This document shows, one piece after another, positions 1 to 12,311 of a DNA stretch of 64,000 nucleotides. The stretch's first letter is position 1; every line of letters starts with the position of its first letter. Position numbers and translations under genes: made by a program. The notes under the pieces are model-generated. The model searched no databases. It saw only the letters and a program-made list of their open reading frames with translations, and had not been told where the DNA came from. This DNA is from an uncultured bacterium (GTDB lineage: Bacteria > Actinomycetota > Acidimicrobiia > Spongiisociales > UBA5794), in the NCBI GenBank assembly GCA_963801165.1, contig CAWDDT010000001.1, positions 1,917 to 65,916 on the forward strand. The letters are read 5' to 3'.

Positions 1-633
1 GACTGCCGGGAAGAAGATCGCAAACAGCACCCAGAATCCGGGCCCGCCTGCAGGTTGACCCCACTTGCCGGACAACGCGCCGGCGTGGAGGTTGGAAACC
101 GCGCCGACGTAGAACGACACAAGAGCGGCGGCCAGCAGTGCCATGACTACGAACTGGAACTTGCTTGCTGCGTCGGCACCGAGCCAGGCGAGGACGAACA
201 GCGCGAGAACCGCTCCGGCGGCGATGAGTTGAACCGGGAGGGCGCCGTCCAAATTGGCGATAGCGGCGATCGCTTCACCAAACCCGATCGCATAGAACGC
301 AATGGATACCGATTGGGCTAGGAAGAGCACTATCCCGATAGCGCCGCCGAACTCGATGCCGAGCGTCCGAGAGATCAGGTAGTAGTCCCCGCCTCCTCGC
401 ACCTCGATATTCGTTGAGATGGCGGCGAGCGAGATGCTGGTGAGGCTGGTAACGGCCGTCGCCAGTCCGATCATGAGCAGAGCGTTGCGAAGGCCGCCGT
501 TGCCTACGACATAGCCGAGGCGGAGAAAGAGAATGATGCCGAGGATTGTCAGGATCGAGGGTGTGAACACCCCCACGAAGGTCCCCAGGGTGCCATTGCT
601 CGCTTTGGGATCCACCCCGCCAACTCCGATCAT
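1..633 (-). CDS. Cation-chloride cotransporter (SLC12/CCC)-like permease of the APC superfamily, N-terminal 211 codons; the C-terminus lies beyond the window start
   Basis: Absent from the ORF track because it is truncated. Hand translation of the reverse strand from ATG (complement of 631-633) gives MIGVGGVDPKASNGTLGTFVGVFTPSILTILGIILFLRLGYVVGNGGL...VRGGGDYYLISRTLGIEFGGAIGIVLFLAQSVSIAFYAIGF, open to position 1. GTxxGVFxPxxLxILGxILFLRLGxVVG and GGxYYxISRxLG are TM1/TM3 hallmarks of CCC transporters. Confidence 0.75.
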   Translation of the reverse strand, partial: MIGVGGVDPKASNGTLGTFVGVFTPSILTILGIILFLRLGYVVGNGGLRNALLMIGLATAVTSLTSISLAAISTNIEVRGGGDYYLISRTLGIEFGGAIGIVLFLAQSVSIAFYAIGFGEAIAAIANLDGALPVQLIAAGAVLALFVLAWLGADAASKFQFVVMALLAAALVSFYVGAVSNLHAGALSGKWGQPAGGPGFWVLFAIFFPAV

Positions 634-1088
634 GCCAGCTCGAGCGAGAACGTCACCTCGCCGGGTCCCACGCCAGCGACTGGGCAGCAATGGTAGCGAG
701 AATCGTGACACGCGCCGGCTCCGTTCGGTTTACGTGCTGGTGTTACAGCGCATGGATCTACGGCCGGATGTGGTGATCGGAGCCCTGAGGGGGCCGGCGT
801 CAAGGCCGGCGAGTGGACCGCACGGCCAATCGCCGTATCATGAAGTGACGGAGGATCGTCTGTTCCGCTCGGTATCGGCCTGTCGGCGCTCGACCGGTGT
901 TTTCACAGATGTTCTTCGTCACTGAGCCGGAGGCCGATGCAGACGAACCGAGTGGTGCGGCAAGTACATCTCAACGGCGTCGAGCGCTATGGGCGGGGGT
1001 GCGCGTCGGGGCCTGCTGATGAGGAGCCAAATGATGAGTTGGAGGTGTCCCGTGACCGAGGAAAACGAATAGTTGTGGGTGGTCTCGA

Positions 1089-2132
1089 GTGAGAATCGCA
1101 TTCGTCGTCAACGATCTGGCAACCGAAGAGGCTGGTTACACAACTACACGCCTTGGTGTGGCTGCCACGAACCGCGGATGGGAGGCATGGATAATTGGCG
1201 TTGGCGATCTTGCTTACGATCCGGATGAGCACATCAAGGCAACCGCACGACGAGTGCCCAGGACCCGATACAAGACAGGAAAGGCCTATCTGGCCGATCT
1301 CCAGGGCAAGACCGCGATCGAAGAGCGGGTCACCATCGACGATCTTGACATTCTGATGCTGCGCAACGACCCGTCCACGGAAATTGGAAAACGGGAATGG
1401 GCCAGGACTGCAGCTGTGGACTTCGGTCGTGTTGCGCTGCGTCACGGTGTGATCGTTCTCAACGATCCAAATGGTCTCGGCAAGGCGCAGAACAAGATGT
1501 ATTTCCAGACCTTCCCCGAGGAAGTGCGACCGTTGACGCTGATTACCCGTAGCCGTGCCGAGCTCAGGTCATTCGTTGATGACCGCGGGACGGTTGTGCT
1601 GAAGCCGCTCCAGGGCTCGGGTGGCCAGGGTGTGTTCCTGGTACGTCGCGATGACGTTTCCAATCTGAATCAAATCATCGACGCCGTCAACCGCGACGGA
1701 TATGTTGTTGCCCAGGAGTACCTGACGCGAGCTACAGAAGGCGACACTCGGCTGTTCCTGATGAACGGGCAACCGCTGCGTCACCGCGGGCGCTACGCAG
1801 CGTTTCGGCGGGTTCGCTCGGGTGGAGACATGCGCTCGAACCTTCATGCCGGAGGCAAACTGGCCAAAGCTGTTCTCGACGATGATGCGTTCCGTCTCGC
1901 CGAAGTGGTCCGGCCCAAGCTGGTCCAGGATGGGATGTTCCTCGTTGGTCTCGACATCGTCGGCGACAAGCTCATGGAGATCAACGTATTCACCCCCGGC
2001 GGTCTCGGCTCGGCACAGAGGCTCGAGGGTGTCAACTTCACTGAGGCGGTGCTCGACGCGCTGGAGCGCAAGGTCGCCTACATGGGCTTCTATCAACGGA
2101 AGTTCGACAATCGGGAGATGGCAACACTGTGA
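1089..2132 (+). CDS. ATP-grasp ligase, glutathione synthetase / RimK-like
   Basis: 347-aa ORF with a GTG start. It has KPLQGSGGQGVFLV (Gly-rich ATP-grasp loop) and LVGLDIVGDKLMEINVFTPGG (metal/ATP E-x-N motif), and the overall layout of prokaryotic GshB-type ligases. The stop overlaps the next start (GTGA). Confidence 0.8.
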   Translation: MRIAFVVNDLATEEAGYTTTRLGVAATNRGWEAWIIGVGDLAYDPDEHIKATARRVPRTRYKTGKAYLADLQGKTAIEERVTIDDLDILMLRNDPSTEIGKREWARTAAVDFGRVALRHGVIVLNDPNGLGKAQNKMYFQTFPEEVRPLTLITRSRAELRSFVDDRGTVVLKPLQGSGGQGVFLVRRDDVSNLNQIIDAVNRDGYVVAQEYLTRATEGDTRLFLMNGQPLRHRGRYAAFRRVRSGGDMRSNLHAGGKLAKAVLDDDAFRLAEVVRPKLVQDGMFLVGLDIVGDKLMEINVFTPGGLGSAQRLEGVNFTEAVLDALERKVAYMGFYQRKFDNREMATL

Positions 2133-2920
2133 CGGGGCACAAGTGGCAGATCAATCGCGGCGAGGGCCGGGTGGTTGCAGCCGCAATTCACGCTGGGCAC
2201 AGTCTTCGGCCGGAGATCGAGGGACGGACCGCGCTCGACGACGCAACCAGATTGCGTGAAGAAGATCCCTTCACGGATCAATGGCTCTCGATAGCGGGAA
2301 CGACAGTCGCCGTGTCCATGTCGAGGTTTGAGATCGACTTGAATCGGCCTCGGGAGTCGGCGGTCTACATGAAGAACAGCGATGCATGGGACCTCCAGCT
2401 CTGGACAGAGGTGCCACCGCCTGACCTGGTCGAGCGTTTGCTCCAGGACTATGACCTCTTCTATAAGGAATTGGCCGAGACGTGCGATGAGGTTGCGGCA
2501 CGTCATGATCGGTTCGTGGTCCTCGACCTGCACTCGTACAACCATCGCCGGCTGGGGCCAGATGCACCCGTAGACTCACCCGCCGACAATCCGGAAATCA
2601 ACGTCGGCACCGGTTCGGTTGACCGCGCTGTCTGGGGGGATGTCGTCGATTCATTTTGCCAGGCGCTCGCTTCGTATCCTTTTGACGGAGGCCACCTCGA
2701 CGTGCGCGAGAACGTCCGATTCAGAGGCGGGCACATGAGTCGTTGGATCAACGAGCGCTACGCCGGCCGGGGTTGTTGCCTGGCGATCGAGGTCAAGAAG
2801 ATCTACATGGACGAATGGACCGGCCAACCCCAGGAGGCCGTGATCGTGAATATCGGCGATGCCCTGATCGCAGCGACGGAGGCGGTTGTCGAATCGCTTA
2901 GTCAAGCGGCTAGTCAGTGA
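2129..2920 (+). CDS. N-formylglutamate amidohydrolase (FGase) family hydrolase
   Basis: 263-aa ORF translationally coupled to the ATP-grasp gene. AAIHAGHSLRPE, FEIDLNRPRE, VVLDLHSYN and INVGTGS segments resemble the FGase family (PF05013) pattern. Recognised by eye only. Confidence 0.7.
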   Translation: MTGHKWQINRGEGRVVAAAIHAGHSLRPEIEGRTALDDATRLREEDPFTDQWLSIAGTTVAVSMSRFEIDLNRPRESAVYMKNSDAWDLQLWTEVPPPDLVERLLQDYDLFYKELAETCDEVAARHDRFVVLDLHSYNHRRLGPDAPVDSPADNPEINVGTGSVDRAVWGDVVDSFCQALASYPFDGGHLDVRENVRFRGGHMSRWINERYAGRGCCLAIEVKKIYMDEWTGQPQEAVIVNIGDALIAATEAVVESLSQAASQ

Positions 2921-4805
2921 GCGACCTCAGGTCGCTCAGACCCTTCAGGCGCTCGAGTCGATAGTGCGTATCAGGATCATCGAGATAAGCCGGACGTAGC
3001 GGCGGCGTGGTCAAGACACCACGCCGCTGGAGCTCCTCTATAACGGCAACGTGGTTCACCGCGATCTTGCCGACGAGGAGAGTGTCCAGGCGACCACCCT
3101 CGGCAAGGTAGGTGACCACGCGCTGCAGACCGCGGAGATAGATGGCATCCTTGACGAGCCCCCCGCCGCGATGGACTCGCGTTGCGATCTGGAAGGCCGC
3201 TGTTTGCGAGAACCCGTAGTCATCTACGAGCAGCCGGTAGGTGTCGATGAACTCCGCCCCGCTCACCACCGAGTGCGCAGCCACCACCCGGGCGGCGATG
3301 ACTCGCAGGCGCGCCGGGGTTAGGCCGGCGACCAGGTACTCGGCGAGAACCGCGAGTCCTTCTTGGAGTTCATCGTGGCCGGCAAGGCCGGTGGCCAGCA
3401 ATCGGAGACGCTGTGCCGCGCCGTTCCAGTAGGTGACGATATGGGTGCCTACCTCGTGCTGGATGAGGGCTTCGACGCGTCTTATCGGAATTCTCATCCC
3501 CGAGGCCACGAGCAGGCGTCCGTTCGAGACCATCAACGAGGTGATGTCGTCGCGCAGTTCCACTGTTGCCCCGATTGTGGGATCGACCGTCCGGTATCGA
3601 TCGACCTCTAGCTGCGCCGCCGCCGCAAAAGACTTCGCATCCATGACCCGGCGGGCACCTTCGCCCTTTGCCCTCGGCAGCGTGTCTAGCAGGAGGGTGG
3701 CCTCAGCAAGCATGGCTGGATCGATGTCGCCGTACAGTGCGGCGCCGGTGTGCACAAACCGCGGGGTTTGGCGATCGCTCAGCAAATCCAATTCGAGGGA
3801 GAGCTCGCGTTGCTTCTCCCGGAAGATTGCCGCGAGCGTGAGATCCTCGACCCGGTCAATTGGGGCGCTATAAAGCGCTCGCTTCAGATCGACCGGGTCC
3901 ACATCGAGGGGCCGGTAGCGGAACAACGGTGGTGATGACGCCTTCCGCCTCACAAACGATCGGAAGGCCCCGGTGGCGTTCACAGGTGTCACGAGCAGCA
4001 GTAGGTCGAACGCAGAAGCAACCCGGGCGAGCTGACGATCTACGTCTGTGACCGCCTTGACGAGGGCGCGGCGCCCTAACGACTGATAATGACGGGGTCG
4101 GTGCGTCGTCTGATGGACTGCAAACTCGTAGGCCGATCGCTGTATTGCCCTCGACAGTTGGCGGTGCAGCGATCGAGCGATGACCGGGAAGATATCTCCC
4201 GTGTCTCGGTTGCGAAATACCGGCCGGACCTCAACGCCGATCTGGTGGACTGATGAAGTAGCCCTCCCCAGCGATTGCGAAAGCCGGGGGAGACCGGGAG
4301 GCGACATGCGGCCGCCGGCAACGACATCGACTTCGCCGGATCGGCCGTGGATACGTGTTCCGCCGAGACTCGATACCAGACGCGCAACGCTCTCGGATTC
4401 TGCATCACGGCGCGCCACGACAACGCGAAACTGTGGGCGCCGCGCCTCGCCGGCGTCGGAAAGGCCGCCGTCCTCGTCTGGTCCGCTCCACAACTCCATC
4501 AGAAGGAACGAACCGAACTCGGCGACCAATTTGGCGGATACCGCTTCCGCCAAAGCCGCAACCTTGCGCTGGTGTTTGCGGTGTCTTGGGGCAATCAGGT
4601 AGGAGGCCTCGCCCTTGACGAAGCTGGCCATCCCCGGATCTGGTCGGCCGGGAGGGGGCCTATAGACCACAAGAAAGGGCAACTGTCTGTCGATGTGAAT
4701 GCGACCACCATCCGGGAGCGTTCGGCGCACCGGTTTGTTCGCGGCGACTCGGAGCCCGACCTGGGCGATGAGATTATCGGTGATGGAGGTAGGGGGCCGC
4801 GGCAA
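2910..4805 (-). CDS. DUF1704 / MATCAP-like metallocarboxypeptidase-family protein (QEGLA-motif protein)
   Basis: 631-aa ORF with a TTG start preceded by GGAG. It contains HEVGTH (HExxxH, ~3441-3458) followed by DELQEGLAVLAEY (QEGLA, 3351-3365) and the N-terminal IHIDRQLPFLVVYR segment typical of this family. Its 3' end overlaps the convergent FGase gene by 11 nt. Confidence 0.85.
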   Translation of the reverse strand: MPRPPTSITDNLIAQVGLRVAANKPVRRTLPDGGRIHIDRQLPFLVVYRPPPGRPDPGMASFVKGEASYLIAPRHRKHQRKVAALAEAVSAKLVAEFGSFLLMELWSGPDEDGGLSDAGEARRPQFRVVVARRDAESESVARLVSSLGGTRIHGRSGEVDVVAGGRMSPPGLPRLSQSLGRATSSVHQIGVEVRPVFRNRDTGDIFPVIARSLHRQLSRAIQRSAYEFAVHQTTHRPRHYQSLGRRALVKAVTDVDRQLARVASAFDLLLLVTPVNATGAFRSFVRRKASSPPLFRYRPLDVDPVDLKRALYSAPIDRVEDLTLAAIFREKQRELSLELDLLSDRQTPRFVHTGAALYGDIDPAMLAEATLLLDTLPRAKGEGARRVMDAKSFAAAAQLEVDRYRTVDPTIGATVELRDDITSLMVSNGRLLVASGMRIPIRRVEALIQHEVGTHIVTYWNGAAQRLRLLATGLAGHDELQEGLAVLAEYLVAGLTPARLRVIAARVVAAHSVVSGAEFIDTYRLLVDDYGFSQTAAFQIATRVHRGGGLVKDAIYLRGLQRVVTYLAEGGRLDTLLVGKIAVNHVAVIEELQRRGVLTTPPLRPAYLDDPDTHYRLERLKGLSDLRSLTD

Positions 4806-4992
4806 GTCTTCTCCGGAGCGACTGCGGCATGATGTTACTGGTCTCCCATCAGATGCCGGGTTCCGCAGTCAGCGCGATTTCCCCCAGCACCGGGCCGTGC
4901 GAGCAGCCGGGACGAAGGCCTGCGCCGAGCGACGATACGCAGGTCCGCGAATGTGCGCCTAGCACCCTGCTCGCCATGAGATCCTGCCCTGT

Positions 4993-6630
4993 CTACGAAG
5001 TTTCCTTTCCGGGGCGGGGCGCCCTGTCCGGTGGGTCCTCCTCGATAGGGATGACAGTCGCAGCGTCCACGGGCAACTTGCCCCGTAGCGTCGTGCCGTG
5101 TCCCGGTGTGCTCTCGATCGTGAGCTTGCCCCCGTGTGCCCCGAGACGGTCTCGCATATTGACGAAGCCATGGCTCTCGTCGACCAGGCCGGGATCGAAA
5201 CCGGCTCCGTCGTCGCTGATCTCGAAGACCAGGTAATCCGCGGCCTCAGCCACCCGCACAATGACCTCGGCGCCCGGTCCGGCGTGTTTGGCGGCATTCT
5301 GCATGGCCTCGAGACAGCAGAAGTAAACCGCAGCTTCGATGCCGCGGTCGAAGCGACGATCGGTCTGGATGTCCGCCCTGGTGGGCATCGTGGACCGGTC
5401 GGCTGCCCGTCGCAGTGCCTCGCCGAGCCCCATGTCCCGGAGTAACGGTGGATAGATGCCATGCGCCAGTTCCCGCATCTCCTCGACCGTTTCCTCAACC
5501 TCGTTGCCCAGATCGTCGAGGAGCCGTCCGAGTGTGTCCGGATCACCGGTCTTCAGCTTGGCGAGTTGGAGCTTGACTGCGAGTGCGACCAGCCGTTGTT
5601 GGGCACCGTCGTGCAGGTCACGTTCGATCTTCCGCCGGGACTCGTCGGCCGCCGTGACGATCCTGGCCCTCGATTCCTGAAGTAACCGGTTCTTGGTCCG
5701 CAGCTCCTCCAGCGACTCCTGCAGCGCCGAGTCGAGGTGGACGTTGTGGAGTGCCAGGCCGACCTGACGGGCGAGGTCGGCGAGAAGGCTGTCGTCGTCG
5801 ATTGCGAAGACTCCCGCGTTGTCTTGCCTGGCGACGACGATGAGCCCGAGCAGGTTGCCCAGGTGGGTGATGGGTGCCACCCGCATGTGGATGTCGTCAG
5901 GTGATCCGAATGCTTCCAGCAGCGTGGGTAGCCACATCGACGCCCACGATGTCCCTGAGACCCTTGCTCCGGCGACCGCGGCGAACTCCGCACCGGCGAG
6001 CGTGATCCGTCCCGGACCATGATCCGGGACCGAGGTAGCGCGGTCGAGCCTTCCATCTTCCCCGGTCCAAACCTCTGCACCGAGCGGCGCCATCGTTTCT
6101 CTGAGCGTCTCGGCGAGCTGGAGAAGCAGTTCGTCCATAGGTACCGACCGGGTCATCCGCGCCCCGAAGTTCTGAAGAGCTGCGGCCGCCGACGGTCGCA
6201 CCGGCCCTGCGGCGGAGCGAGTGGCGCTACGCAACCGGGTGCGGACCGGGCCGGCGAGCGCTAAGGCAGCGCCACCGGCGACCATCGACAGCCCGAGCAC
6301 CCGATGCTCTGAGCCGTTGACGTCTTCGCCGAGCCCAACGACGACCACGAGGTACACGGCGAGCACCATTCCCACTAGGCCGCCGATCGTGACTGTGGCA
6401 CGCAGCACCGGCGCTGCCGCCCTCCGCAGCGGCCGTACCCACACGGCGAGAGCGGGGATCGCGATGGCGAAGGAACCGACCGCCCACCAGGAGCCCAGCC
6501 GGTGTGGCGCGTCGACGAGGACATGGAGCGCCCACAGGCTGAACGCCGTAACCACGGCGACGACGATTGCCCACAGCGTCCACAACACCAGGTCGCGTTG
6601 CGGCGTGTTGACGGTGGCGGGTGCAGTCAT
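4993..6630 (-). CDS. Membrane sensor histidine kinase, TM - GAF - HisKA_3 - HATPase_c (NarL-partner type)
   Basis: 545 aa with an N-terminal hydrophobic region of about 4 TM segments and a GAF-like middle. The H-box is ERDLHDGAQQRLVAL, followed by N/G boxes (CCLEAMQNAAKHAG, ISDDGAGF, HGGKLTIESTPGHGT). Confidence 0.85.
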   Translation of the reverse strand: MTAPATVNTPQRDLVLWTLWAIVVAVVTAFSLWALHVLVDAPHRLGSWWAVGSFAIAIPALAVWVRPLRRAAAPVLRATVTIGGLVGMVLAVYLVVVVGLGEDVNGSEHRVLGLSMVAGGAALALAGPVRTRLRSATRSAAGPVRPSAAAALQNFGARMTRSVPMDELLLQLAETLRETMAPLGAEVWTGEDGRLDRATSVPDHGPGRITLAGAEFAAVAGARVSGTSWASMWLPTLLEAFGSPDDIHMRVAPITHLGNLLGLIVVARQDNAGVFAIDDDSLLADLARQVGLALHNVHLDSALQESLEELRTKNRLLQESRARIVTAADESRRKIERDLHDGAQQRLVALAVKLQLAKLKTGDPDTLGRLLDDLGNEVEETVEEMRELAHGIYPPLLRDMGLGEALRRAADRSTMPTRADIQTDRRFDRGIEAAVYFCCLEAMQNAAKHAGPGAEVIVRVAEAADYLVFEISDDGAGFDPGLVDESHGFVNMRDRLGAHGGKLTIESTPGHGTTLRGKLPVDAATVIPIEEDPPDRAPRPGKETS

Positions 6631-6637
6631 CGGTCAC

Positions 6638-9022
6638 TCATTCGGCCCGGAGCACCTGTGCCAATTGGAGGTGGGCGGCCCGCCGGGACGGAGTGACCGC
6701 AAGCAGGTTGACCGCAACGAGTACCAGAGGCACGACCACTGCCAACAGGAGCAGCTCACCGGGGGCGAGATACAGAAGCGGGGTTCGCTCGGCCACATAC
6801 CTCCAGAAAATACGTCCGAGGGCGACGCCGAGGGGAATCCCGGCAATGAGGCCGACAAGGCCGACGATTGTCGCCTGGGTGGTCACGATGAGCCGTGACT
6901 GGCGTCGGTCCATTCCGACCGCCCGCAGCACGGCAAGGTCATGGCTGCGACGCCGGACCGCGGTGGTCAATGCGTGCCCGACCGCACCGAGGGCGAGCAC
7001 GACAAGGAACGCCGCCAGGAAGATCGGCATCGCCCGCACCTCACGCAGTTCTGCGACCTGTGTCGGGATCTGCGGTGTGTCGAGTGGGAGCCCGAGGCCG
7101 GCGATCCGTTCACTTGCGGCCGCAAAGTCTGCACCGTCACGCAGGTCGACGAGCACGAAATGGAACTTGTGCCCGTCAAAAAGTGTGTGATAGGCGTCGG
7201 CGGTTACCCACCCGCCTGAGTCGTAGTCATTGTGCGGTCCGGCGGGGACGAAAGCGATTCCAGAGACCGTTAGCTCACGAGTTCCCAGCGTGCCCGTGAA
7301 TAGAGCGGTATCGCCGACGTCGATTCCGGCGGCTTTGGCAGTGGTCGGAGCCAGCGCGACCTCGTTCTTCCCGGTTGGGGAGTGGCCCCGGGTGAAGACG
7401 AGATCGATTGGCTGATTCACGGGGTCGATGGCGAACAACGATGCCGCGACGTCGTTGACCTGGGCCACATCCATCGGTGTGTCGTTTACGGCCACTACAT
7501 CGGGGTCGGCTTCGACCGCAGGCAGGATCGTCTGAGCATCGGCGAAATCGAAGCCGTTGTATCCGACAAAGCCACCGGCCTCGTAGGTGATCCCGAACCT
7601 CTGCAGATTGTCGACGGCGTCATTGATCCCGTTCGCCAATGTGAATGCGGCGAGCACTCCGAGAACTCCGATTGTGGCACCAAACAGGGCGGGCCTCACC
7701 GGGATCGTGTGACGGCCTCGGCCGGGCTCGAGTGCGAAGCGGGCTCCGACGACAACGGGCACCGGCATGCCCACACGACCGGCTCCGGCCGCGACTGCCG
7801 ACCGGCGTGGGGCAGGCGCGGTGATGAGCCGTCGCATTGTGCCGAAGGCGAGGGCCGCGCCGCCGCCGGTTGTAAGCACCATGGTCGCGACGAAGCCGAC
7901 GCCTACAGCAACGACGTCCGCGTTCCCACCGGGCGCGGGTTCCAGGTACGCGGCGGTCCCAATGGGGAACCACCGCGAGGCGACTACCGCAGCGACCGCG
8001 CCCACAGCCCACCCGGCGAACGCGGCGAAGGTTGGGCCAAGGACAACGGCCGTGCGGGTTTCCCCGGGTGTCATGCCCACCGCACGCAGCGGCTCGAGGT
8101 CGCCGAGTGTCGAGCTGACATGGCGTACCACCGCCTGGCCGACGATGAACAGGGCGGCAACCGCTGCGGCGAGGGCAAAGACACTGAGGCTGCCGGCCTC
8201 GAACCCGGCGACGCTCCGACTGTGATTCTCCCCCTCGCTGAGATCCCACACGTCGATGTCGGAGCGACCAGTTATTCTGGCAAGGTCGGCTTTGAATCGA
8301 GGGATGTCGGCTGCGCCGCCCTCGAGGCGGATCAACGCGTTTACATAGCCGGTGTCGCCTTCGGCTCCGAGGAAGTTGTCCTCGTGTGCGGAGAACAGCC
8401 CGGGGGACGGGATGACCGCACCGGCATCCTCACCTACTTTGTCCGCGAACCAGTACGAGCGGATCGCGCCGACGATGGTGGCCGGGATGGTCGGGCCTTC
8501 TGGTTCTCCGGTGTCGCCGGTCAGCGAGACATCGATCTGCTCGGGAGTGTACAGATGCAGTGTCACGGAGTCTCCGACCTGCATACCGAAATAGGCGAGG
8601 AACTGAGGGGTCACGACAACCTCATCGTCACGACTCGAATCGGGGAGTCGCCCCTCGAGCACGACCGGCCGCTCGATGGTGTCGAATGCCTCGTCGTCTG
8701 TCGACGGGAACCAGGTGCCGATCGTAACCGGCGAAGAGATGCCGTCGATCTCGTAGTAGGTGACCGCAAAGCCGGTGAGGGCGGTCACCTCGGGAAGCGC
8801 GCGGACGGCATCCCAGTCGAAGTCGGGCTCGTTGGGGAGTGCCACCACGTCGGCGGGCAGGGTGCGAGCCAGCAACCGGTCGAGGGCGGTATCGCCCCGC
8901 CGGGCTCCGGCCAGGGCGGTCATGACCGTCCCGGACGCAAACGCCACGAGGAGCGCCAGCACCAGCAGCGACCGCCAACGGTGCCGCAGATCGAGGCGGA
9001 ACCATGTCCATACCGCCGTCAT
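6638..9022 (-). CDS. ABC transporter permease with two FtsX-like domains (MacB/YbbP type)
   Basis: 794 aa. Two blocks of about 4 TM helices are separated by large extracytoplasmic regions. Repeated motifs RAVGMTPGETR and LRAVGMDRRQ are typical of FtsX domains. The ATG overlaps the upstream ATPase stop (ATGA). Confidence 0.85.
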   Translation of the reverse strand: MTAVWTWFRLDLRHRWRSLLVLALLVAFASGTVMTALAGARRGDTALDRLLARTLPADVVALPNEPDFDWDAVRALPEVTALTGFAVTYYEIDGISSPVTIGTWFPSTDDEAFDTIERPVVLEGRLPDSSRDDEVVVTPQFLAYFGMQVGDSVTLHLYTPEQIDVSLTGDTGEPEGPTIPATIVGAIRSYWFADKVGEDAGAVIPSPGLFSAHEDNFLGAEGDTGYVNALIRLEGGAADIPRFKADLARITGRSDIDVWDLSEGENHSRSVAGFEAGSLSVFALAAAVAALFIVGQAVVRHVSSTLGDLEPLRAVGMTPGETRTAVVLGPTFAAFAGWAVGAVAAVVASRWFPIGTAAYLEPAPGGNADVVAVGVGFVATMVLTTGGGAALAFGTMRRLITAPAPRRSAVAAGAGRVGMPVPVVVGARFALEPGRGRHTIPVRPALFGATIGVLGVLAAFTLANGINDAVDNLQRFGITYEAGGFVGYNGFDFADAQTILPAVEADPDVVAVNDTPMDVAQVNDVAASLFAIDPVNQPIDLVFTRGHSPTGKNEVALAPTTAKAAGIDVGDTALFTGTLGTRELTVSGIAFVPAGPHNDYDSGGWVTADAYHTLFDGHKFHFVLVDLRDGADFAAASERIAGLGLPLDTPQIPTQVAELREVRAMPIFLAAFLVVLALGAVGHALTTAVRRRSHDLAVLRAVGMDRRQSRLIVTTQATIVGLVGLIAGIPLGVALGRIFWRYVAERTPLLYLAPGELLLLAVVVPLVLVAVNLLAVTPSRRAAHLQLAQVLRAE

Positions 9023-9723
9023 CGGATTTCTCTCACCTTGTCTGCCGTGACTGTTTTGTCCGCGACCCGGCCGTCGGACATCTGCACGACCCGGGAGGCT
9101 CCGGCAGCGACATCTCTGGAGTGGGTCACCATCAGGATCGTCTGCCCATCGCGGTGCAGTCGTCGGAACAGCTCGAGGATCTCGGTGCCGCCCTCGCTGT
9201 CGAGCGCACCGGTGGGCTCGTCGGCGAGGAGCACGGTCGGCTCGTTGACCAACGCACGGGCAATGGCCAGACGTTGGCGTTGACCGCCGGACAACGATGC
9301 AGGCAGCTGTTCGGTTCGATCGCCGAGGCCGAGGAGATCCAGCAGATCACGGGCTCGGGATTCTGCCGAACGGCGGTTCATCCCACCGAGCATTGCCGCG
9401 AGTGCGATGTTATCCAGGGCCGACATACCTTCAAGCAGGTTGAAGAATTGAAAGACGATCCCGACGTGGCGCCGGCGGAATTCCGCCAACCAGCGCTCGT
9501 CACGCCCGGTGACCGTGAGGTCGTCCACGATGACCTCGCCCTCGTCGGCTGTTTCGAGACCGGCGAAGATGTTGAGCAATGTGGACTTGCCGCACCCCGA
9601 CGGTCCCATGAGGGCCACAAACTCGCCGTGGCCCACTTCGAGATCGACGCCGCGCAGGGCTCGAACGGGCGCCAGCTCCGCCGCAAACGTGCGGCGTACC
9701 CCCGTAGCACTCAACGCACTCAC
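9019..9723 (-). CDS. ABC transporter ATP-binding protein (MacB/LolD type)
   Basis: Walker A GPSGCGKST, signature LSGGQRQRLAIARAL and Walker B LLADEPTGALD. I place the start at GTG 9723, preceded by GAGGAGGAA, rather than at the track TTG at 9831. Confidence 0.9.
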   Translation of the reverse strand: MSALSATGVRRTFAAELAPVRALRGVDLEVGHGEFVALMGPSGCGKSTLLNIFAGLETADEGEVIVDDLTVTGRDERWLAEFRRRHVGIVFQFFNLLEGMSALDNIALAAMLGGMNRRSAESRARDLLDLLGLGDRTEQLPASLSGGQRQRLAIARALVNEPTVLLADEPTGALDSEGGTEILELFRRLHRDGQTILMVTHSRDVAAGASRVVQMSDGRVADKTVTADKVREIR

Positions 9724-9858
9724 GAATTCCTCCTCGAGCAGAACCGACCGACAGCCGGATCGCAGCCCTGGATCATCGTGCGCACAGTCCGCGATCGCAA
9801 GCGTCGGGGCGATGGGCCGGCCGGGCGACAAAGATGGGATGTCCTGGTCATGGCGGGG

Positions 9859-10851
9859 TCAACGCTCCTCACGGCGGTGATCCGCTGCGATCGCAGCCAG
9901 GGTGACCGGGTCGGCGGTGACGGCCCGTTGCACCGCGACCCGGGCTGCGGTCCGGGCTCGCACGGTGGCGGATCGAACGCCGCCCTCGAGGATCGAGCGC
10001 TCGCCGACGATGGCGCCGGGACCAACCTCGGCCACCGTCTCCCCGTCGACATCGACGTCGAAGACTCCGTCGATGACCAGGTACAGCTCGTCACCAGGCT
10101 CGTTCTGGACCGTGATTGTCTCGCCGGCTGCCACCTTGCGGAACTTCGGTTTCGATCGCATCAGGTCCTTGGAGAACTCCCGCTCCACCGGGCTGGCGAC
10201 CTCGGCCACGAGCGGAACGTGCTCCACGCCGTGCCACGGCGATCGCGCGTGATCGTGGATCCGGGTCCAGGTCTTCCAGTCGGTAGTCGCCGTCTTCAAC
10301 GCGAGATCCCCGTTGCCGTCGTAGACCCACTGCCGCGGGAACGGGGAGGACCCCGAGAGCTCGAACACGGGTGTCCCAGTCGCCGCGATGTCGAGGGTGA
10401 GGGTCGACCACGCAGTCGGTCCGCTGATCCGCAGGAAGGGTGGTCGGTCGATCCGGCGCGGTAATGGTGCTCCCGTTCGGCCCCCGGCGGTCTGGGTGAA
10501 CCGGGCTCGCCCGTTTGCGACGACGGGAGGCTGCTGCAGGACGGGGTAGGCGACGCCCGGGAAGGTGATCTTGAGCGGACCGAGATGGGCAGTCGTCGAT
10601 CCTACGATTCCTGTCCCTGAATAGCCGGCGTCGACGATATCGCCGTCTTCGACGTCGATCCATGCCGAGAGACGGTTAGCGAAGCGGATGGCATCGTTCT
10701 CCACGAGTTGCGCAAGAACGTCGCGGTCGATGTGATCAGGCGGTGGTGGGTCGTAGTGGCCGACTCCCATGTCGATCGGGAGCCGTACCATCCCCTCGAT
10801 CGCTTCCGATGGGATCCAACCGAGCGATGTGACCGTCGATTCGTATCGCAT
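9859..10851 (-). CDS. Cyclic-nucleotide-binding domain protein with an unassigned ~230-aa N-terminal domain
   Basis: 330 aa. The C-terminal ~100 aa show the cNMP-binding fold signature (GDELYLVIDG...GPGAIVGERSILEGGVRSATVRA, with GE...RSAT). I could not assign the N-terminal part (MRYESTVTSLGWIPSEAIEG...) to any family. Confidence 0.75.
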   Translation of the reverse strand: MRYESTVTSLGWIPSEAIEGMVRLPIDMGVGHYDPPPPDHIDRDVLAQLVENDAIRFANRLSAWIDVEDGDIVDAGYSGTGIVGSTTAHLGPLKITFPGVAYPVLQQPPVVANGRARFTQTAGGRTGAPLPRRIDRPPFLRISGPTAWSTLTLDIAATGTPVFELSGSSPFPRQWVYDGNGDLALKTATTDWKTWTRIHDHARSPWHGVEHVPLVAEVASPVEREFSKDLMRSKPKFRKVAAGETITVQNEPGDELYLVIDGVFDVDVDGETVAEVGPGAIVGERSILEGGVRSATVRARTAARVAVQRAVTADPVTLAAIAADHRREER

Positions 10852-11000
10852 TGTTCCTCCTCCGGCATCCGTTACGGAACCACTGTTCCGGACGGACGGT
10901 CTGTGGTCCAGGGTGCGAGCAGGCCAATCGGGGTATGGGAAACCCCACCCCGGATCAACCGGTTCACCCGCTGGCGGCCGGCTGATCGTTTGCGCACCAT

Positions 11001-12311
11001 GTGGGCATGACCATCTCGGTGTTCCTGGCCGACGACAACCTCCTCGTGCGGGAGGGCGTAGGCGCGCTCATCGCGCTCGCACCCGACATCGAGGTGGTCG
11101 GCCTGGCCGGCGACTTCGACAGCCTCGTCGACGGGGCAACCGCCGTTGCTCCACAGGTCGTTGTCACCGACATCCGGATGCCACCCGACTTCATGCGTGA
11201 AGGCATCGAAGCCGCCAAGATCGTGCGCAAGACGCATCCGGGGACAGGGATCGTGATCCTGTCCCAGTACGACGATCCCGAATACGCGGTGGCGCTCCTG
11301 TCTGAAGGCGCTGCCGGATATGCGTATCTCCTCAAGGACCGGATCGCCAAAGGCGACCAGCTGGTCAGGGCGATCCGCGAGGTCGCCACGGGCGGCTCGA
11401 TGCTCGATCCGAAGATCGTGGAGGCACTCACCCGTCCGGTGAGCCGGGATGGCCTCCTCGATGCCGACGAAGAGCGTCTGCTGACTCATATAGCCGAAGG
11501 GACACCGATCAAGGGGATTGCGGCCGGGATGAGGACGACTGCGGCCGATGTGGATGCGCGTATCGAGGCGCTCTTTGTGAAGCTTGCCGGGGGTGTTTCG
11601 TCGGGGAGCCATGCTGCGGTCGAGCAACTCCGCAGGCTGCAGCGGGCGATCGCCGTCCGCGAGGAACAGGGTGAGGAACTGTCCCGGCTCCTACCAGGAG
11701 GCATCGCAGCCAGGCTTAAACAAGGTGGTCACCGGATAGGAGATACCGAAGAGCTCGAGGTCACGGTGCTCATGTCGGACATTCGCGGGTATTCGGGCAT
11801 CGCAGAGCGAGCCGCTCCCACCGCGCTCGCCGGGCAGCTCAATCGCCATCGTGCTGAGATGAACCGGGCGATCCTGGCGCATGGCGGTACGGTGATGCAG
11901 TTCGTCGGTGACGCGGTTATGGCGGTCTTCGGAGCGCCCGACCCTGCCGCGGATCACGCCGAGAGCGCCGTCGCGGCAGCCATCGACATGCACATAGCGC
12001 AGGCCCGGGTCAATGCCGAATGGCAGGTGGAGGGCCTCGACGAATTCGAGCTCGGCATCGGGGTGTCGAGCGGCCCGGTCGCAGCTGCGCTCCTAGGCTC
12101 TGAGGAGCGCGTCGAGTACACCCTGGTCGGAGACACCGTGAACCTGGCGCAGCGGCTCCAGCAATGGGGCGACCCGGGTGAGACAATCCTCAGTGAAGCG
12201 ACTCACGCCGGTCTCAGGACTCCACCCGAGTGCGATGCGATCGAGCCGGCTTTGGTGAAGGGTCGCCAGTCGCCGATTGGCGCCTATCGGTTTCCGCCAC
12301 GGGTTCGGTGA
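11001..12311 (+). CDS. Response regulator (REC) - degenerate LuxR-type HTH - class III adenylate/guanylate cyclase fusion
   Basis: 436 aa. REC: FLADDN...VVVTDIRMPP...AYLLKDR. HTH-like: ERLLTHIAEGTPIKGIAAGMRTTAADVDARIEALFVKL. Cyclase: VLMSDIRGYS, FVGDAVMAVFGAP, LVGDTVNLAQRLQ. Confidence 0.85.
   Translation: MGMTISVFLADDNLLVREGVGALIALAPDIEVVGLAGDFDSLVDGATAVAPQVVVTDIRMPPDFMREGIEAAKIVRKTHPGTGIVILSQYDDPEYAVALLSEGAAGYAYLLKDRIAKGDQLVRAIREVATGGSMLDPKIVEALTRPVSRDGLLDADEERLLTHIAEGTPIKGIAAGMRTTAADVDARIEALFVKLAGGVSSGSHAAVEQLRRLQRAIAVREEQGEELSRLLPGGIAARLKQGGHRIGDTEELEVTVLMSDIRGYSGIAERAAPTALAGQLNRHRAEMNRAILAHGGTVMQFVGDAVMAVFGAPDPAADHAESAVAAAIDMHIAQARVNAEWQVEGLDEFELGIGVSSGPVAAALLGSEERVEYTLVGDTVNLAQRLQQWGDPGETILSEATHAGLRTPPECDAIEPALVKGRQSPIGAYRFPPRVR

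What the first reader, a model, noticed from the sequence alone, without database searches (positions are those of the whole stretch)
1..4805. Permease + ATP-grasp ligase + FGase + MATCAP-like (DUF1704/QEGLA) metallopeptidase: candidate bacterial carboxylate ligation/trimming module
SEEN: four adjacent genes. (a) A CCC/SLC12-like permease (1-633, minus). (b) A glutathione-synthetase/RimK-type ATP-grasp ligase (1089-2132, plus). (c) An N-formylglutamate-amidohydrolase-family gene (2129-2920, plus) whose start overlaps the ligase stop (GTGA). (d) A convergent 631-aa protein (2910-4805, minus) with HEVGTH (~3441-3458) and QEGLA (3351-3365). The two convergent genes overlap by 11 nt at their 3' ends. 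KNOWN: the HExxxH + QEGLA family (DUF1704, PF08014) includes eukaryotic MATCAP, the tubulin C-terminal tyrosine carboxypeptidase. The enzyme that opposes it, tubulin tyrosine ligase, is an ATP-grasp ligase. RimK is an ATP-grasp enzyme that adds C-terminal Glu residues to ribosomal protein S6. Comparative genomics of amidoligases has predicted that ATP-grasp/FGase/peptidase neighbourhoods build or modify peptides. To my knowledge no bacterial member has a defined substrate. INFERENCE: one ligase, two hydrolases and a dedicated permease look like a self-contained add/remove cycle on a carboxylate. The target could be a protein C-terminus, a short peptide, or an amino-acid-derived solute; an osmolyte is plausible given the cation-chloride cotransporter. 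This is my best candidate in the window for an uncharacterised system.
Basis: partly seen in the sequence, partly recalled or inferred. Interest (0 to 1): 0.75.

Follow-up and report, generated by a model that had tools for sequence, protein, structure and literature searches.

The report
Conserved bacterial ligase–two-hydrolase gene module
Three adjacent genes (a glutathione-synthetase-like ligase, a formylglutamate-amidohydrolase-type hydrolase and a MATCAP-type zinc carboxypeptidase) form a module kept together in more than a dozen bacterial phyla; its substrate is unknown, and it often sits next to magnesium, potassium and osmotic-release channels.

Summary
All four ORFs, both gene overlaps and the HEVGTH and QEGLA motifs are at the stated coordinates.

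The core is three genes, not four. The ligase, the FGase and the 631-aa protein lie together in 72 of 75 evaluable loci, in three different gene orders.

The ligase belongs to NCBIfam subfamily NF009110 (PRK12458). It fails both curated GshB models.

The 631-aa protein has two domains. In Photobacterium, Methyloprofundus, Scalindua and others, an FGase domain with the family motifs intact is fused to MATCAP and overlaps the ligase gene.

The cation-chloride transporter is not a core part; even the closest relative lacks it. Even so, CCC, MscS, MgtE, CorA, CorC or CaCA genes lie within 10 kb in 26 of 91 loci. In Photobacterium damselae the ligase and fusion genes rise 38- and 27-fold at low salt.

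I found no biochemical study of any bacterial member.

Best reading: ATP-dependent synthesis and two-step hydrolysis of a small acidic, probably glutamate-containing, peptide or N-acyl amino acid, tied to cation or osmotic balance. Tagging of a protein C-terminus remains possible.

The parts
1089..2132 (+). ATP-grasp ligase, 347 aa, NCBIfam subfamily NF009110 (PRK12458). It is GshB-like but is not a GshB equivalog.
   Evidence: NF009110 452.6 bits (cut-off 408). GshB equivalogs fail: NF003573 213 bits (cut-off 272), TIGR01380 196 bits (cut-off 299). RimK family 72.6 bits (cut-off 143). Closest solved relative is E. coli GshB 1gsa, E 3.5e-36. Conserved against it: K160, the GxGG loop, R210, R225, R233 and D273/E281/N283; R241 is Lys. 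Identity to homologues in other phyla is 66-93%.
2129..2920 (+). Stand-alone FGase-family amidohydrolase, 263 aa. Its start overlaps the ligase stop (GTGA).
   Evidence: PF05013 89 bits. HutG equivalog TIGR02017 scores only 30.7 bits against a cut-off of 278.75. All family-invariant polar residues are present: H21, H24, E44, D46, R66, D70, N72, R73, D133, H135, N138, R141, E221, K223, K224. Adjacent to the other two genes in 72 of 75 evaluable loci.
2910..4805 (-). Two-domain 631-aa protein: a degenerate FGase-like N-domain followed by a MATCAP-type gluzincin carboxypeptidase domain.
   Evidence: AlphaFold2 model with mean pLDDT 85.7. The full-length architecture is conserved in at least 80 genomes from more than 12 phyla.
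4056..4805 (-). N-terminal domain, residues 1-250. Phosphorylase/peptidase-like fold, remote FGase homologue, probably not catalytic.
   Evidence: No Pfam hit. Foldseek: FGase 2q7s E 2.7e-4 (prob 1.0), plus AmiC2, PNP, DapE and M42, with TM 0.3-0.46. hhalign against the stand-alone FGases: probability 81.5%, E 1.1e-5, 130 columns. FGase H135 aligns to W106, D133 to E104, and E221 to a non-invariant E192; there is no HxGH motif. 662 clusters at 50% identity, in the listed hits almost always at the N-terminus of proteins of about 630 aa.
2958..3959 (-). MATCAP (PF08014, formerly DUF1704) catalytic domain, residues 283-616, with HEVGTH (nt 3441-3458) and QEGLA (nt 3351-3365).
   Evidence: PF08014 296.5 bits. 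TIGR02421 335.6 bits against a cut-off of 338.65. Foldseek to human MATCAP 7z5g: E 2.3e-8 to 4.3e-8 and target-normalised TM 0.65-0.68 across its chains. H450, E451, H455 and E482 are invariant in 18 homologues. The equivalent Glu residues are needed for activity in TMCP1 and TMCP2 (PMC10499314).
1..633 (-). 5' part of a prokaryotic cation-chloride-cotransporter-type (CCC, APC fold) gene. It is a neighbour, not part of the conserved core.
   Evidence: AA_permease 68 bits. TIGR00930 135 bits over 184 residues. Full-length homologues carry the prokaryotic CCC C-terminal domains PF21554 and PF21555. Present within 10 kb in about 10 of 81 loci and absent from the closest relative L001.
634..1088 (.). 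Divergent intergenic region between the transporter and the ligase; presumed promoter region.
   Evidence: No Rfam match at E<=0.1. One weak sigma-70-like site at 814-841, no more than expected by chance.

Best explanation
The window carries one copy of a widespread three-enzyme module. I think the three enzymes act on one shared carboxylate substrate.

1. The PRK12458 ATP-grasp ligase works like glutathione synthetase. It activates a terminal carboxylate as an acyl-phosphate and adds one amino acid.
2. The MATCAP-type zinc carboxypeptidase domain removes a C-terminal residue, which is the reverse direction.
3. The FGase-family amidohydrolase cleaves the remaining N-acyl-amino-acid (formylglutamate-like) amide.

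The substrate is most likely a small, acidic, glutamate-containing peptide or N-acyl-glutamyl compound, comparable in kind to glutathione, NAAG or beta-citrylglutamate. Its pool would be adjusted together with intracellular cations (Mg2+, K+) and osmotic state.

In the window's lineage the FGase copy once fused to MATCAP has lost the family's His motifs. It probably now serves as a docking or substrate-binding domain, while a separate FGase gene supplies the activity.

Shown here: the families, intact family motifs, conserved linkage, the fusion, and the neighbourhood and expression associations.
Inferred: the chemistry, the substrate class and the physiological role.
For: Linkage:
- All three genes are present in 72 of 75 evaluable loci, in three gene orders: convergent, divergent and co-directional with 10-45-nt spacers. 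The loci span Acidimicrobiia, Chloroflexota, Poribacteria, Gemmatimonadota, Calditrichota, Bacteroidota, Ignavibacteria, Planctomycetota and others.
- The same operon occurs on S. meliloti pSymB and in Shinella.

Fusion:
- A roughly 660-aa protein combines an FGase domain (Pfam 54 bits; AIHHGH, EEDPFT, DIHSYN and LEVKK motifs kept) with MATCAP. Its gene overlaps the ligase gene by 8-17 nt in every fused-type locus with gene calls: Photobacterium damselae, Methyloprofundus, Scalindua, Thiosulfativibrio, Marinobacterium, Moritella and one unnamed metagenome assembly.

One ligase orthogroup:
- All tested module ligases hit NF009110 best and above its cut-off.

Enzyme competence:
- The GshB catalytic and lid-loop residues are kept.
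- The MATCAP zinc and catalytic residues are invariant.
- The FGase family invariants are present.

Glutamate theme:
- MATCAP/TMCP enzymes also remove C-terminal Glu and shorten poly-Glu chains (PMC10499314).
- FGase releases Glu.
- From general knowledge, the GshB/RimK clade mostly handles Glu substrates.

Ion link:
- Mg2+ transporters (MgtE, CorA, CorC) lie within 10 kb in 15 of 91 loci, mechanosensitive channels in at least 8, CCC in 9, and any of these (CaCA included) in 26.
- Seven of the 80 genome-scan loci have one immediately adjacent.
- Thiosulfativibrio has a co-directional string CorC>MgtE>DUF481>VIT1>ligase>fusion.
- In P. damselae, 'GshB' RS17020 rises 38-fold and QEGLA RS17025 rises 27-fold at 1% versus 3% NaCl (PMC10308900). 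The gene pair in that species was confirmed.
Against: - No substrate or product has been identified anywhere.
- No recurrent gene supplies an N-acyl or dipeptide precursor.
- MATCAP's only characterised members act on protein tails, not on small peptides.
- The very high ligase conservation (66-72% identity between phyla, against 43-50% for its two partners) would also fit a conserved macromolecular substrate.
- The ion-transporter enrichment rests on assumed genomic copy numbers, not on a measured background.
- The RNA-seq evidence comes from one species with the fused architecture.
Confidence: 0.5

Rival explanations
1. Protein or peptide C-terminal tagging cycle. The ligase adds one or more residues (Glu, Gly or Tyr-like) to the acidic C-terminus of a conserved protein, as RimK does on ribosomal protein S6 and TTL/TTLL do on tubulin. 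The MATCAP domain erases the mark, and the FGase recycles or trims the released product.
For: - MATCAP/TMCP are protein C-terminal carboxypeptidases and deglutamylases that oppose ATP-grasp ligases (PMC10499314). The fold match to human MATCAP is clear.
- The ligase is unusually conserved across phyla.
- The Arg-rich conserved N-domain could bind an acidic tail.
- RimK was co-induced 52-fold in the same Photobacterium experiment.
Against: - The ligase is much closer to GshB than to RimK (213 versus 73 bits). It keeps both GshB lid loops, including R233; in GshB these loops close over a small substrate (general knowledge).
- FGase is a small-molecule amidohydrolase family.
- No candidate substrate gene is conserved in or beside the operon, and the 10-45-nt spacers leave no room for one.
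Confidence: 0.22
2. A dedicated glutathione (or gamma-Glu-Cys-X) turnover unit. The ligase is a true second glutathione synthetase, and the two hydrolases degrade glutathione or its conjugates.
For: - The GshB catalytic residues are conserved.
- The Photobacterium orthologue also passes the NF003573 GshB cut-off, 292 against 272.
- A glutaredoxin/GST_N gene and a GGACT gene lie near the module in Marinobacterium.
- From general knowledge, glutathione gates Kef potassium efflux, which would fit the ion link.
Against: - The window ligase and most module ligases fail both GshB equivalog cut-offs.
- No gshA is linked in any locus.
- The module is common in Acidimicrobiia and Chloroflexota, which are not known as glutathione producers (general knowledge, not tested here).
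- S. meliloti and vibrios carry a canonical gshB elsewhere (general knowledge).
Confidence: 0.12
3. Ordinary, functionally unrelated neighbours: a housekeeping GshB, a histidine-utilisation HutG and an unrelated peptidase that happen to lie together.
For: [quoted passage not shown]
Against: - Linkage is conserved in 72 of 75 evaluable loci despite three rearranged orders, and an FGase-MATCAP fusion exists.
- The HutG equivalog scores 30.7 bits against a cut-off of 278.75, and the GshB equivalogs fail.
- No gene family beyond the three core genes, ABC ATPases and ion transporters recurs in the neighbour clustering, so no hut genes recur.
Confidence: 0.02

Closest known systems
Eukaryotic tubulin tyrosination and glutamylation cycle (TTL/TTLL ATP-grasp ligases against MATCAP/TMCP carboxypeptidases)
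   Same: An ATP-grasp ligase is paired with a PF08014 gluzincin carboxypeptidase. The HExxxH motif plus a downstream catalytic Glu are conserved. The fold match to human MATCAP 7z5g has E about 2e-8 and TM 0.66. MATCAP/TMCP remove C-terminal Tyr and Glu.
   Different: The ligase is GshB-like, not TTL-like. There is no tubulin. An FGase is an obligatory third activity. The bacterial protein carries an N-terminal FGase or pseudo-FGase domain that human MATCAP lacks. The substrate is unknown and may be a small molecule.
RimK with RimB (RimABK): alpha-L-glutamate ligase on ribosomal protein S6 plus a trimming protease
   Same: A GshB/RimK-clade ATP-grasp ligase sits in one operon with a hydrolase that reverses its product. 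There is a link to stress and osmotic adaptation, and RimK is co-induced in Photobacterium.
   Different: TIGR00768 scores 72.6 bits against a cut-off of 143, and the S6-ligase equivalog 29 bits against 331, so both fail. The partner hydrolases are metallohydrolases of other folds, not a retropepsin.
Bacterial glutathione synthetase GshB (E. coli 1gsa)
   Same: It is the closest solved relative (E 3.5e-36). The domain layout is the same (GSH-S_N plus GSH-S_ATP). The ATP, Mg2+ and lid-loop residues are conserved.
   Different: The window ligase fails both curated GshB models and belongs to the separate subfamily NF009110. It is always linked to FGase and MATCAP, never to gshA.
HutG N-formylglutamate amidohydrolase (PF05013)
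   Same: Pfam family membership, with the family-invariant polar residues present.
   Different: It is far below the HutG equivalog cut-off (30.7 against 278.75 bits), and no hut genes are nearby.
Small acidic peptide systems: NAAG and beta-citrylglutamate synthetases (RIMKLA/B) with GCPII/III, and the bacterial NAGGN osmolyte cluster (ligase, amidotransferase, peptidase)
   Same: An ATP-grasp ligase makes an N-acyl-Glu-type anionic peptide and dedicated metallopeptidases degrade it. NAGGN gives an osmoadaptation context. This comparison rests on my general knowledge.
   Different: There is no orthology: TIGR03103 scores only 16.5 bits. The hydrolase folds differ, and no product has been demonstrated.
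Amidoligase-peptidase neighbourhoods predicted by comparative genomics (Iyer, Abhiman, Burroughs and Aravind 2009, Mol Biosyst 5:1636)
   Same: The concept is the same: ATP-grasp ligases genomically linked to peptidases, FGase-type ones included. The reference is cited in PMC4431377.
   Different: The paper is not in the library, so I could not check whether this exact triad, the fusion or the pseudo-FGase domain is described there.

Membership tests
MATCAP / DUF1704 (Pfam PF08014) | Profile match above the Pfam gathering score | tested here: met
   296.5 bits against a cut-off of 27, residues 283-616.
MATCAP / DUF1704 (Pfam PF08014) | HExxxH zinc motif plus a downstream Glu (QEGLA) | tested here: met
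   H450, E451, H455 and E482 are invariant in 18 homologues. E281 in TMCP1, and E329 and E364 in TMCP2, are needed for activity.
MATCAP / DUF1704 (Pfam PF08014) | Structural similarity to solved MATCAP | tested here: met
   Foldseek against 7z5g chains: E 2.3e-8 to 4.3e-8, probability 1.0, target-normalised TM 0.65-0.68. There is no sequence-level PDB hit.
MATCAP / DUF1704 (Pfam PF08014) | Carboxypeptidase activity on a protein C-terminal Tyr, Phe or Glu | not testable with these tools
   This needs an enzyme assay.
NCBIfam TIGR02421 (QEGLA motif protein, hypothetical equivalog) | Score above the curated cut-off | tested here: not met
   335.6 bits against 338.65, just below. The Photobacterium fusion (460 bits) and the short Pseudoalteromonas form (345 bits) both pass.
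Glutathione synthetase GshB (NF003573 / TIGR01380 equivalogs) | Score above the curated equivalog cut-offs | tested here: not met
   213.3 bits against 272, and 196 bits against 299.05.
Glutathione synthetase GshB (NF003573 / TIGR01380 equivalogs) | Catalytic and lid-loop residues (K160, R210, R225, R233, D273/E281/N283) | tested here: met
   All are conserved in the phmmer alignment to 1gsa; R241 is Lys.
Glutathione synthetase GshB (NF003573 / TIGR01380 equivalogs) | gamma-Glu-Cys plus Gly ligase activity, or gshB complementation | not testable with these tools
   This needs an experiment.
NCBIfam NF009110 (PRK12458 subfamily) | Score above the curated cut-off and best hit | tested here: met
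   452.6 bits against 408. The same holds for the Photobacterium, Sinorhizobium, Shinella and Planctomycetales orthologues.
RimK family alpha-L-glutamate ligase (TIGR00768; NF007764) | Score above the curated cut-offs | tested here: not met
   72.6 bits against 143.4, and 29 bits against 331.
FGase (Pfam PF05013) | Profile match above the gathering score, with the family-invariant residues | tested here: met
   89 bits against 28.9. Invariant H21, D46, R66, D70, N72, R73, D133, H135, E221, K223 and K224 are present.
HutG N-formylglutamate deformylase (TIGR02017 equivalog) | Score above the cut-off, and a hut-operon context | tested here: not met
   30.7 bits against 278.75. No recurrent hut genes appear among 80 loci.
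FGase fold (N-terminal domain of the 631-aa protein) | Homology to FGase and retention of its His/Asp/Glu motifs | tested here: inconclusive
   There is no Pfam hit. hhalign gives probability 81.5% and E 1.1e-5 over the C-terminal half. Foldseek against 2q7s gives E 2.7e-4 but TM only about 0.4. H135 is replaced by Trp, there is no HxGH motif, and the E221 equivalent is not invariant. Homology is likely; catalysis is unlikely.
Prokaryotic cation-chloride cotransporter (CCC) | APC-fold membrane domain plus the CCC C-terminal domains | tested here: inconclusive
   Only 211 N-terminal residues lie in the window; TIGR00930 gives 135 bits against a full-length cut-off of 953. The full-length homologue in L050 has PF21554 and PF21555.

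The most novel reading that the evidence does not exclude
The module is a bacterial post-translational (or peptide) C-terminal 'write/erase' system and the prokaryotic forerunner of the tubulin ligase/MATCAP cycle. A GshB-like ligase would add acidic residues to a conserved cellular protein, and the MATCAP-FGase pair would remove them, in response to intracellular Mg2+, K+ or osmotic state.
Probability: 0.2. Interest if true: 0.85.

Novelty: new variant of a known kind. Interest (0 to 1): 0.6.

Why it matters
- Outside animals, ciliates and other eukaryotes, MATCAP-family enzymes are uncharacterised. Here the bacterial family turns out to be locked to an ATP-grasp ligase and an FGase across more than a dozen phyla. 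It occurs in tractable organisms: Sinorhizobium meliloti pSymB, Photobacterium and Vibrio.
- That makes three questions directly testable: what bacterial MATCAPs do, where the eukaryotic enzyme came from, and what the 'second glutathione synthetase' (PRK12458) really makes.
- Current database names (glutathione synthetase, N-formylglutamate amidohydrolase, flavohemoglobin expression-modulating protein) are probably misleading. They already propagate into papers; one RNA-seq study read the module's ligase as GshB.
- The repeated placement beside Mg2+, K+/Cl- and mechanosensitive channels hints at an unrecognised organic-anion component of cation and osmotic homeostasis.

Tried and rejected
- Riboswitch or other RNA element in the intergenic regions: no Rfam match at E<=0.1 in 1-7000. 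Promoter and terminator scans gave nothing above chance.
- Anti-phage defence system: no PADLOC hit for any of the three proteins.
- Phage-borne relatives: none in IMG/VR.
- A fourth conserved gene or a small precursor ORF: all-against-all clustering of ORFs from 81 loci found none, and the spacers in co-directional operons are only 10-45 nt.
- Functional link to the window's downstream genes (HisKA_3 kinase, MacB/FtsX ABC exporter, cNMP-binding protein, receiver-cyclase): these are not conserved next to the module elsewhere.
- Sequence-level matches of the 631-aa protein or the FGase to PDB: none, even with profiles.
- Literature searches found no biochemical study. Terms tried: DUF1704, QEGLA, MATCAP with bacteria or prokaryote, COG3930, PRK12458, TIGR02421, FGase with glutathione synthetase, and pSymB with glutathione synthetase.
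- The Iyer 2009 amidoligase paper could not be read.
- The S. meliloti 1021 locus tags could not be recovered because that record has no gene table here.
- The origin of the 'flavohemoglobin expression-modulating' name is, from my memory, a P. aeruginosa fhp-promoter transposon screen (Koskenkorva 2008). I could confirm only that the paper exists.

Full report
**1. Observation**

- Ligase, 1089-2132 (+), 347 aa.
- FGase, 2129-2920 (+), 263 aa.
- A 631-aa ORF, 2910-4805 (-).
- An open frame, 1-633 (-), that runs off the window.

The GTGA start/stop overlap at 2129-2132 and the 11-nt convergent overlap at 2910-2920 are visible in the sequence. HEVGTH (residues 450-455) and QEGLA (481-485) map to nt 3441-3458 and 3351-3365.

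Pfam gives the following:
- Ligase: GSH-S_ATP 169 bits, GSH-S_N 38 bits and RimK 54 bits.
- Second gene: FGase 89 bits.
- Residues 283-616 of the 631-aa protein: MATCAP PF08014, 296.5 bits.
- Truncated ORF: AA_permease 68 bits.

The N-terminus of the truncated ORF also matches the K-Cl cotransporter model TIGR00930. Composition (60-68% G+C) and the closest homologues point to an Acidimicrobiia-type actinobacterium.

**2. What the ligase is**

By NCBI's curated models it is not a GshB equivalog: 213 bits against a cut-off of 272, and 196 against 299. It is not a RimK either: 73 bits against 143. It is a member of subfamily NF009110 (PRK12458), at 452.6 bits against 408.

Every module-linked ligase I tested falls in the same subfamily: Photobacterium, Sinorhizobium, Shinella and a tandem pair in a Planctomycetales genome.

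Its closest solved relative is E. coli GshB (1gsa, E 3.5e-36). In that alignment these residues are kept: the ATP-binding Lys (K160), the GxGG small loop, R210, R225, the lid-loop R233, and the Mg2+ ligands D273, E281 and N283. R241 is Lys. GshB-type acyl-phosphate chemistry is therefore a reasonable inference.

**3. The 631-aa protein has two domains**

An AlphaFold2 model (mean pLDDT 85.7) was searched against the PDB.
- The C-terminal part matches human MATCAP (7z5g, E about 2e-8, target TM 0.66).
- The N-terminal part matches N-formylglutamate amidohydrolase 2q7s and other phosphorylase/peptidase-fold proteins.

Modelled alone (pLDDT 87.6), residues 1-260 hit uridine and purine nucleoside phosphorylases, AmiC2, FGase 2q7s (E 2.7e-4), DapE and M42 peptidases, at modest TM (0.3-0.46).

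A profile-profile comparison of this domain with the stand-alone FGases of the same loci gives probability 81.5% and E 1.1e-5 over 130 columns. In that alignment:
- The FGase motif DLHSYNH becomes E-x-W.
- No HxGH motif exists.
- The position of FGase E221 is not invariant.

I read this domain as a degenerate, probably non-catalytic FGase relative. It is family-specific: 662 clusters at 50% identity. In the listed hits it sits almost always at the N-terminus of proteins of about 630 aa; two have it further in, and the shorter hits look like fragments. Pfam does not detect it.

**4. Conservation of the gene set**

A scan of one genome per GTDB species found 373 relatives of the 631-aa protein. 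The best 80 loci are all of the long form and come from more than 12 phyla.

A tblastn search with the window's proteins shows the ligase and the FGase next to the MATCAP-type gene in 72 loci. Five others are cut by contig ends. Three (L029, L043, L069) have no FGase within 10 kb.

Three gene orders occur:
- The window's convergent order, 20 loci.
- A divergent order, 16 loci.
- A co-directional FGase>MATCAP>ligase operon with 10-45-nt spacers, 33 loci, mostly from non-actinobacterial MAGs.

The co-directional operon is also on Sinorhizobium meliloti pSymB and in Shinella. [quoted passage not shown]

The ligase is much more conserved (median 72% identity; 66-72% to the co-directional loci) than the FGase (median 53%) or the MATCAP-type protein (median 48%). 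Clustering of all ORFs in the loci found no fourth core gene.

**5. A fusion ties FGase to MATCAP**

In Photobacterium sp. DA100 the gene after the ligase encodes about 660 aa with Pfam FGase (54 bits) plus MATCAP (366 bits). Its FGase part keeps the family motifs ATAIHHGH, EEDPFT, SRYEYDLNR, YDIHSYN and LEVKK.

This fused form is widespread: Photobacterium including P. damselae, Aliivibrio, Moritella, Vibrio, Endozoicomonas, Methylococcaceae, Thiosulfativibrio, Scalindua and Leptolyngbyaceae. In all seven contexts with gene calls that I examined, the ligase gene overlaps the fusion gene by 8-17 nt and no separate FGase is present.

So an FGase with intact motifs is present either fused or as a separate gene. 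Where it is separate, the fused copy has decayed.

A short stand-alone QEGLA protein (426 aa) in Pseudoalteromonas has neither partner. The module is therefore a property of the long and fused subfamilies, not of all PF08014 proteins.

**6. The permease and the ion link**

The CCC-type gene is within 10 kb in only about 10 of 81 loci, and not in the closest relative L001. It is not a core part. Its family (APC fold plus prokaryotic CCC C-terminal domains) suggests inorganic-ion cotransport rather than export of a product.

Still, it recurs in several phyla. It is sometimes immediately adjacent and co-directional: L005, L050, and behind an MscS gene in L037 and L038.

Other recurrent neighbours are MscS-type channels, MgtE, CorA, CorC/CNNM and CaCA. 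The census over 91 loci gives:
- Mg2+ transporters in 15 loci.
- Mechanosensitive channels in at least 8.
- CCC in 9.
- Any of these in 26.

Three striking cases:
- Thiosulfativibrio has a co-directional run CorC>MgtE>DUF481>VIT1>ligase>fusion.
- Scalindua places MgtE, a 1241-aa MscS-family channel and glutamate dehydrogenase beside the pair.
- An unnamed metagenome assembly (L090) places MgtE and a large MscS-family channel beside the pair.

As an internal yardstick, the rare CCC family appears in as many loci as ABC ATPases, one of the commonest bacterial gene families. I did not measure a true genomic background.

Independently, in P. damselae the adjacent 'GshB' (RS17020) and QEGLA (RS17025) genes were 38- and 27-fold higher at 1% than at 3% NaCl (PMC10308900). 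I confirmed that this species carries the ligase-fusion pair. In V. vulnificus the pair VV2_1203/VV2_1204 is a clade-specific accessory locus (PMC3091676).

**7. Mechanism**

Shown:
- Three enzyme families with intact family motifs.
- Obligate linkage.
- A fusion.

Inferred:
- The ligase extends a terminal carboxylate by one amino acid.
- The MATCAP domain removes a C-terminal residue.
- The FGase cleaves the remaining N-acyl-amino-acid amide.

Fusions usually join steps of one pathway, so I favour two successive hydrolytic steps that undo or degrade the ligase product.

Glutamate is the common thread. FGase releases Glu. MATCAP/TMCP enzymes remove C-terminal Glu and shorten poly-Glu chains (PMC10499314). 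From general knowledge, the GshB/RimK clade mostly uses Glu-containing substrates.

Several features lean towards a small acidic peptide or N-acyl-glutamyl compound:
- The retained GshB lid loops.
- The small-molecule nature of FGase.
- The absence of any linked substrate gene.

Such a compound could act as a counter-ion or chelator for Mg2+ and K+. The comparisons with NAAG, beta-citrylglutamate, gamma-glutamyl peptides in E. coli osmoadaptation, and NAGGN come from my own knowledge.

The main rival is a protein C-terminal write/erase cycle of the RimK or TTL type. The ligase's unusual conservation and the protein-directed activity of eukaryotic MATCAP support that rival.

**8. Novelty and limits**

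I found no biochemical work on any bacterial member. One review simply counts PRK12458 as GshB (PMC3462692).

The general idea of ATP-grasp ligases linked to FGase-type and other peptidases comes from Iyer et al. 2009. I could not read that paper, so some of the linkage may already be described there.

The window's locus is one ordinary member of a widespread module. The module itself is an uncharacterised variant of the ligase-plus-peptidase theme. The pseudo-FGase domain, the FGase-MATCAP fusion and the ion-transporter association are, as far as I could check, not described.

No RNA element, defence-system signature or phage relative was found.

Noticed in passing
window 4993-12311: Downstream of the module lie a HisKA_3 histidine kinase (4993-6630, -), a MacB/FtsX-type ABC exporter (permease 6638-9022, ATPase 9019-9831, -), a cNMP-binding protein (9859-10851, -) and a receiver-domain adenylate/guanylate cyclase (11001-12311, +). 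No response regulator with a DNA-binding domain was seen next to the kinase. None of these genes is conserved beside the module in other genomes.
   Followed up: partly
L062:11896-14055 and L051:5579-7980: Two PRK12458 ligase genes lie next to the module in a Planctomycetales MAG (back to back; both above the NF009110 cut-off, 65-67% identical to the window ligase) and in a Deltaproteobacteria MAG (flanking the FGase, on opposite strands). This could mean two successive ligation steps in some lineages.
   Followed up: partly
L091:9118-9627: In Marinobacterium arenosum a GGACT / AIG2-like (gamma-glutamyl cyclotransferase family) gene directly follows the FGase-MATCAP fusion on the same strand, and a glutaredoxin/GST_N gene lies upstream. 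It is a single case, but it hints at gamma-glutamyl chemistry.
   Followed up: no
P0220 and P0235 (same 2,927,812-bp contig; L090 shows one copy): Two different FGase-MATCAP fusion proteins (about 50% identical to the Photobacterium query) are reported on contigs of identical length (2,927,812 bp), probably the same one. If so, that genome has two paralogous modules.
   Followed up: no
L083:5953-7233: Pseudoalteromonas has a short 426-aa QEGLA protein with no N-terminal domain and no adjacent ligase or FGase. It sits between a redoxin gene and a type III PLP enzyme, near an AbgT transporter and the ast genes. This is a separate, stand-alone subfamily of PF08014.
   Followed up: partly
L006, L019, L021, L033, L044 (ligase or FGase genes): The tblastn hits to the ligase or the FGase are split into two frames or pieces in several long-read MAGs. 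These are probably assembly frameshifts, but pseudogenisation is not excluded.
   Followed up: no
L085:3458-4327 and L092:4957-5820: A LysR-family regulator is encoded upstream of the ligase-fusion pair on the opposite strand: directly divergent in Moritella, with a DUF413 gene in between in Photobacterium damselae. tblastn also finds a LysR-type gene in L082 and L084. It is a candidate regulator for the low-salt induction.
   Followed up: no
window 2913-4805 (-): The 631-aa protein scores 335.6 bits against TIGR02421, 3 bits under the curated cut-off. That may explain why close relatives in public records carry different names: 'DUF1704 domain-containing', 'tyrosine/phenylalanine carboxypeptidase domain-containing' or 'QEGLA motif protein'.
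   Followed up: yes
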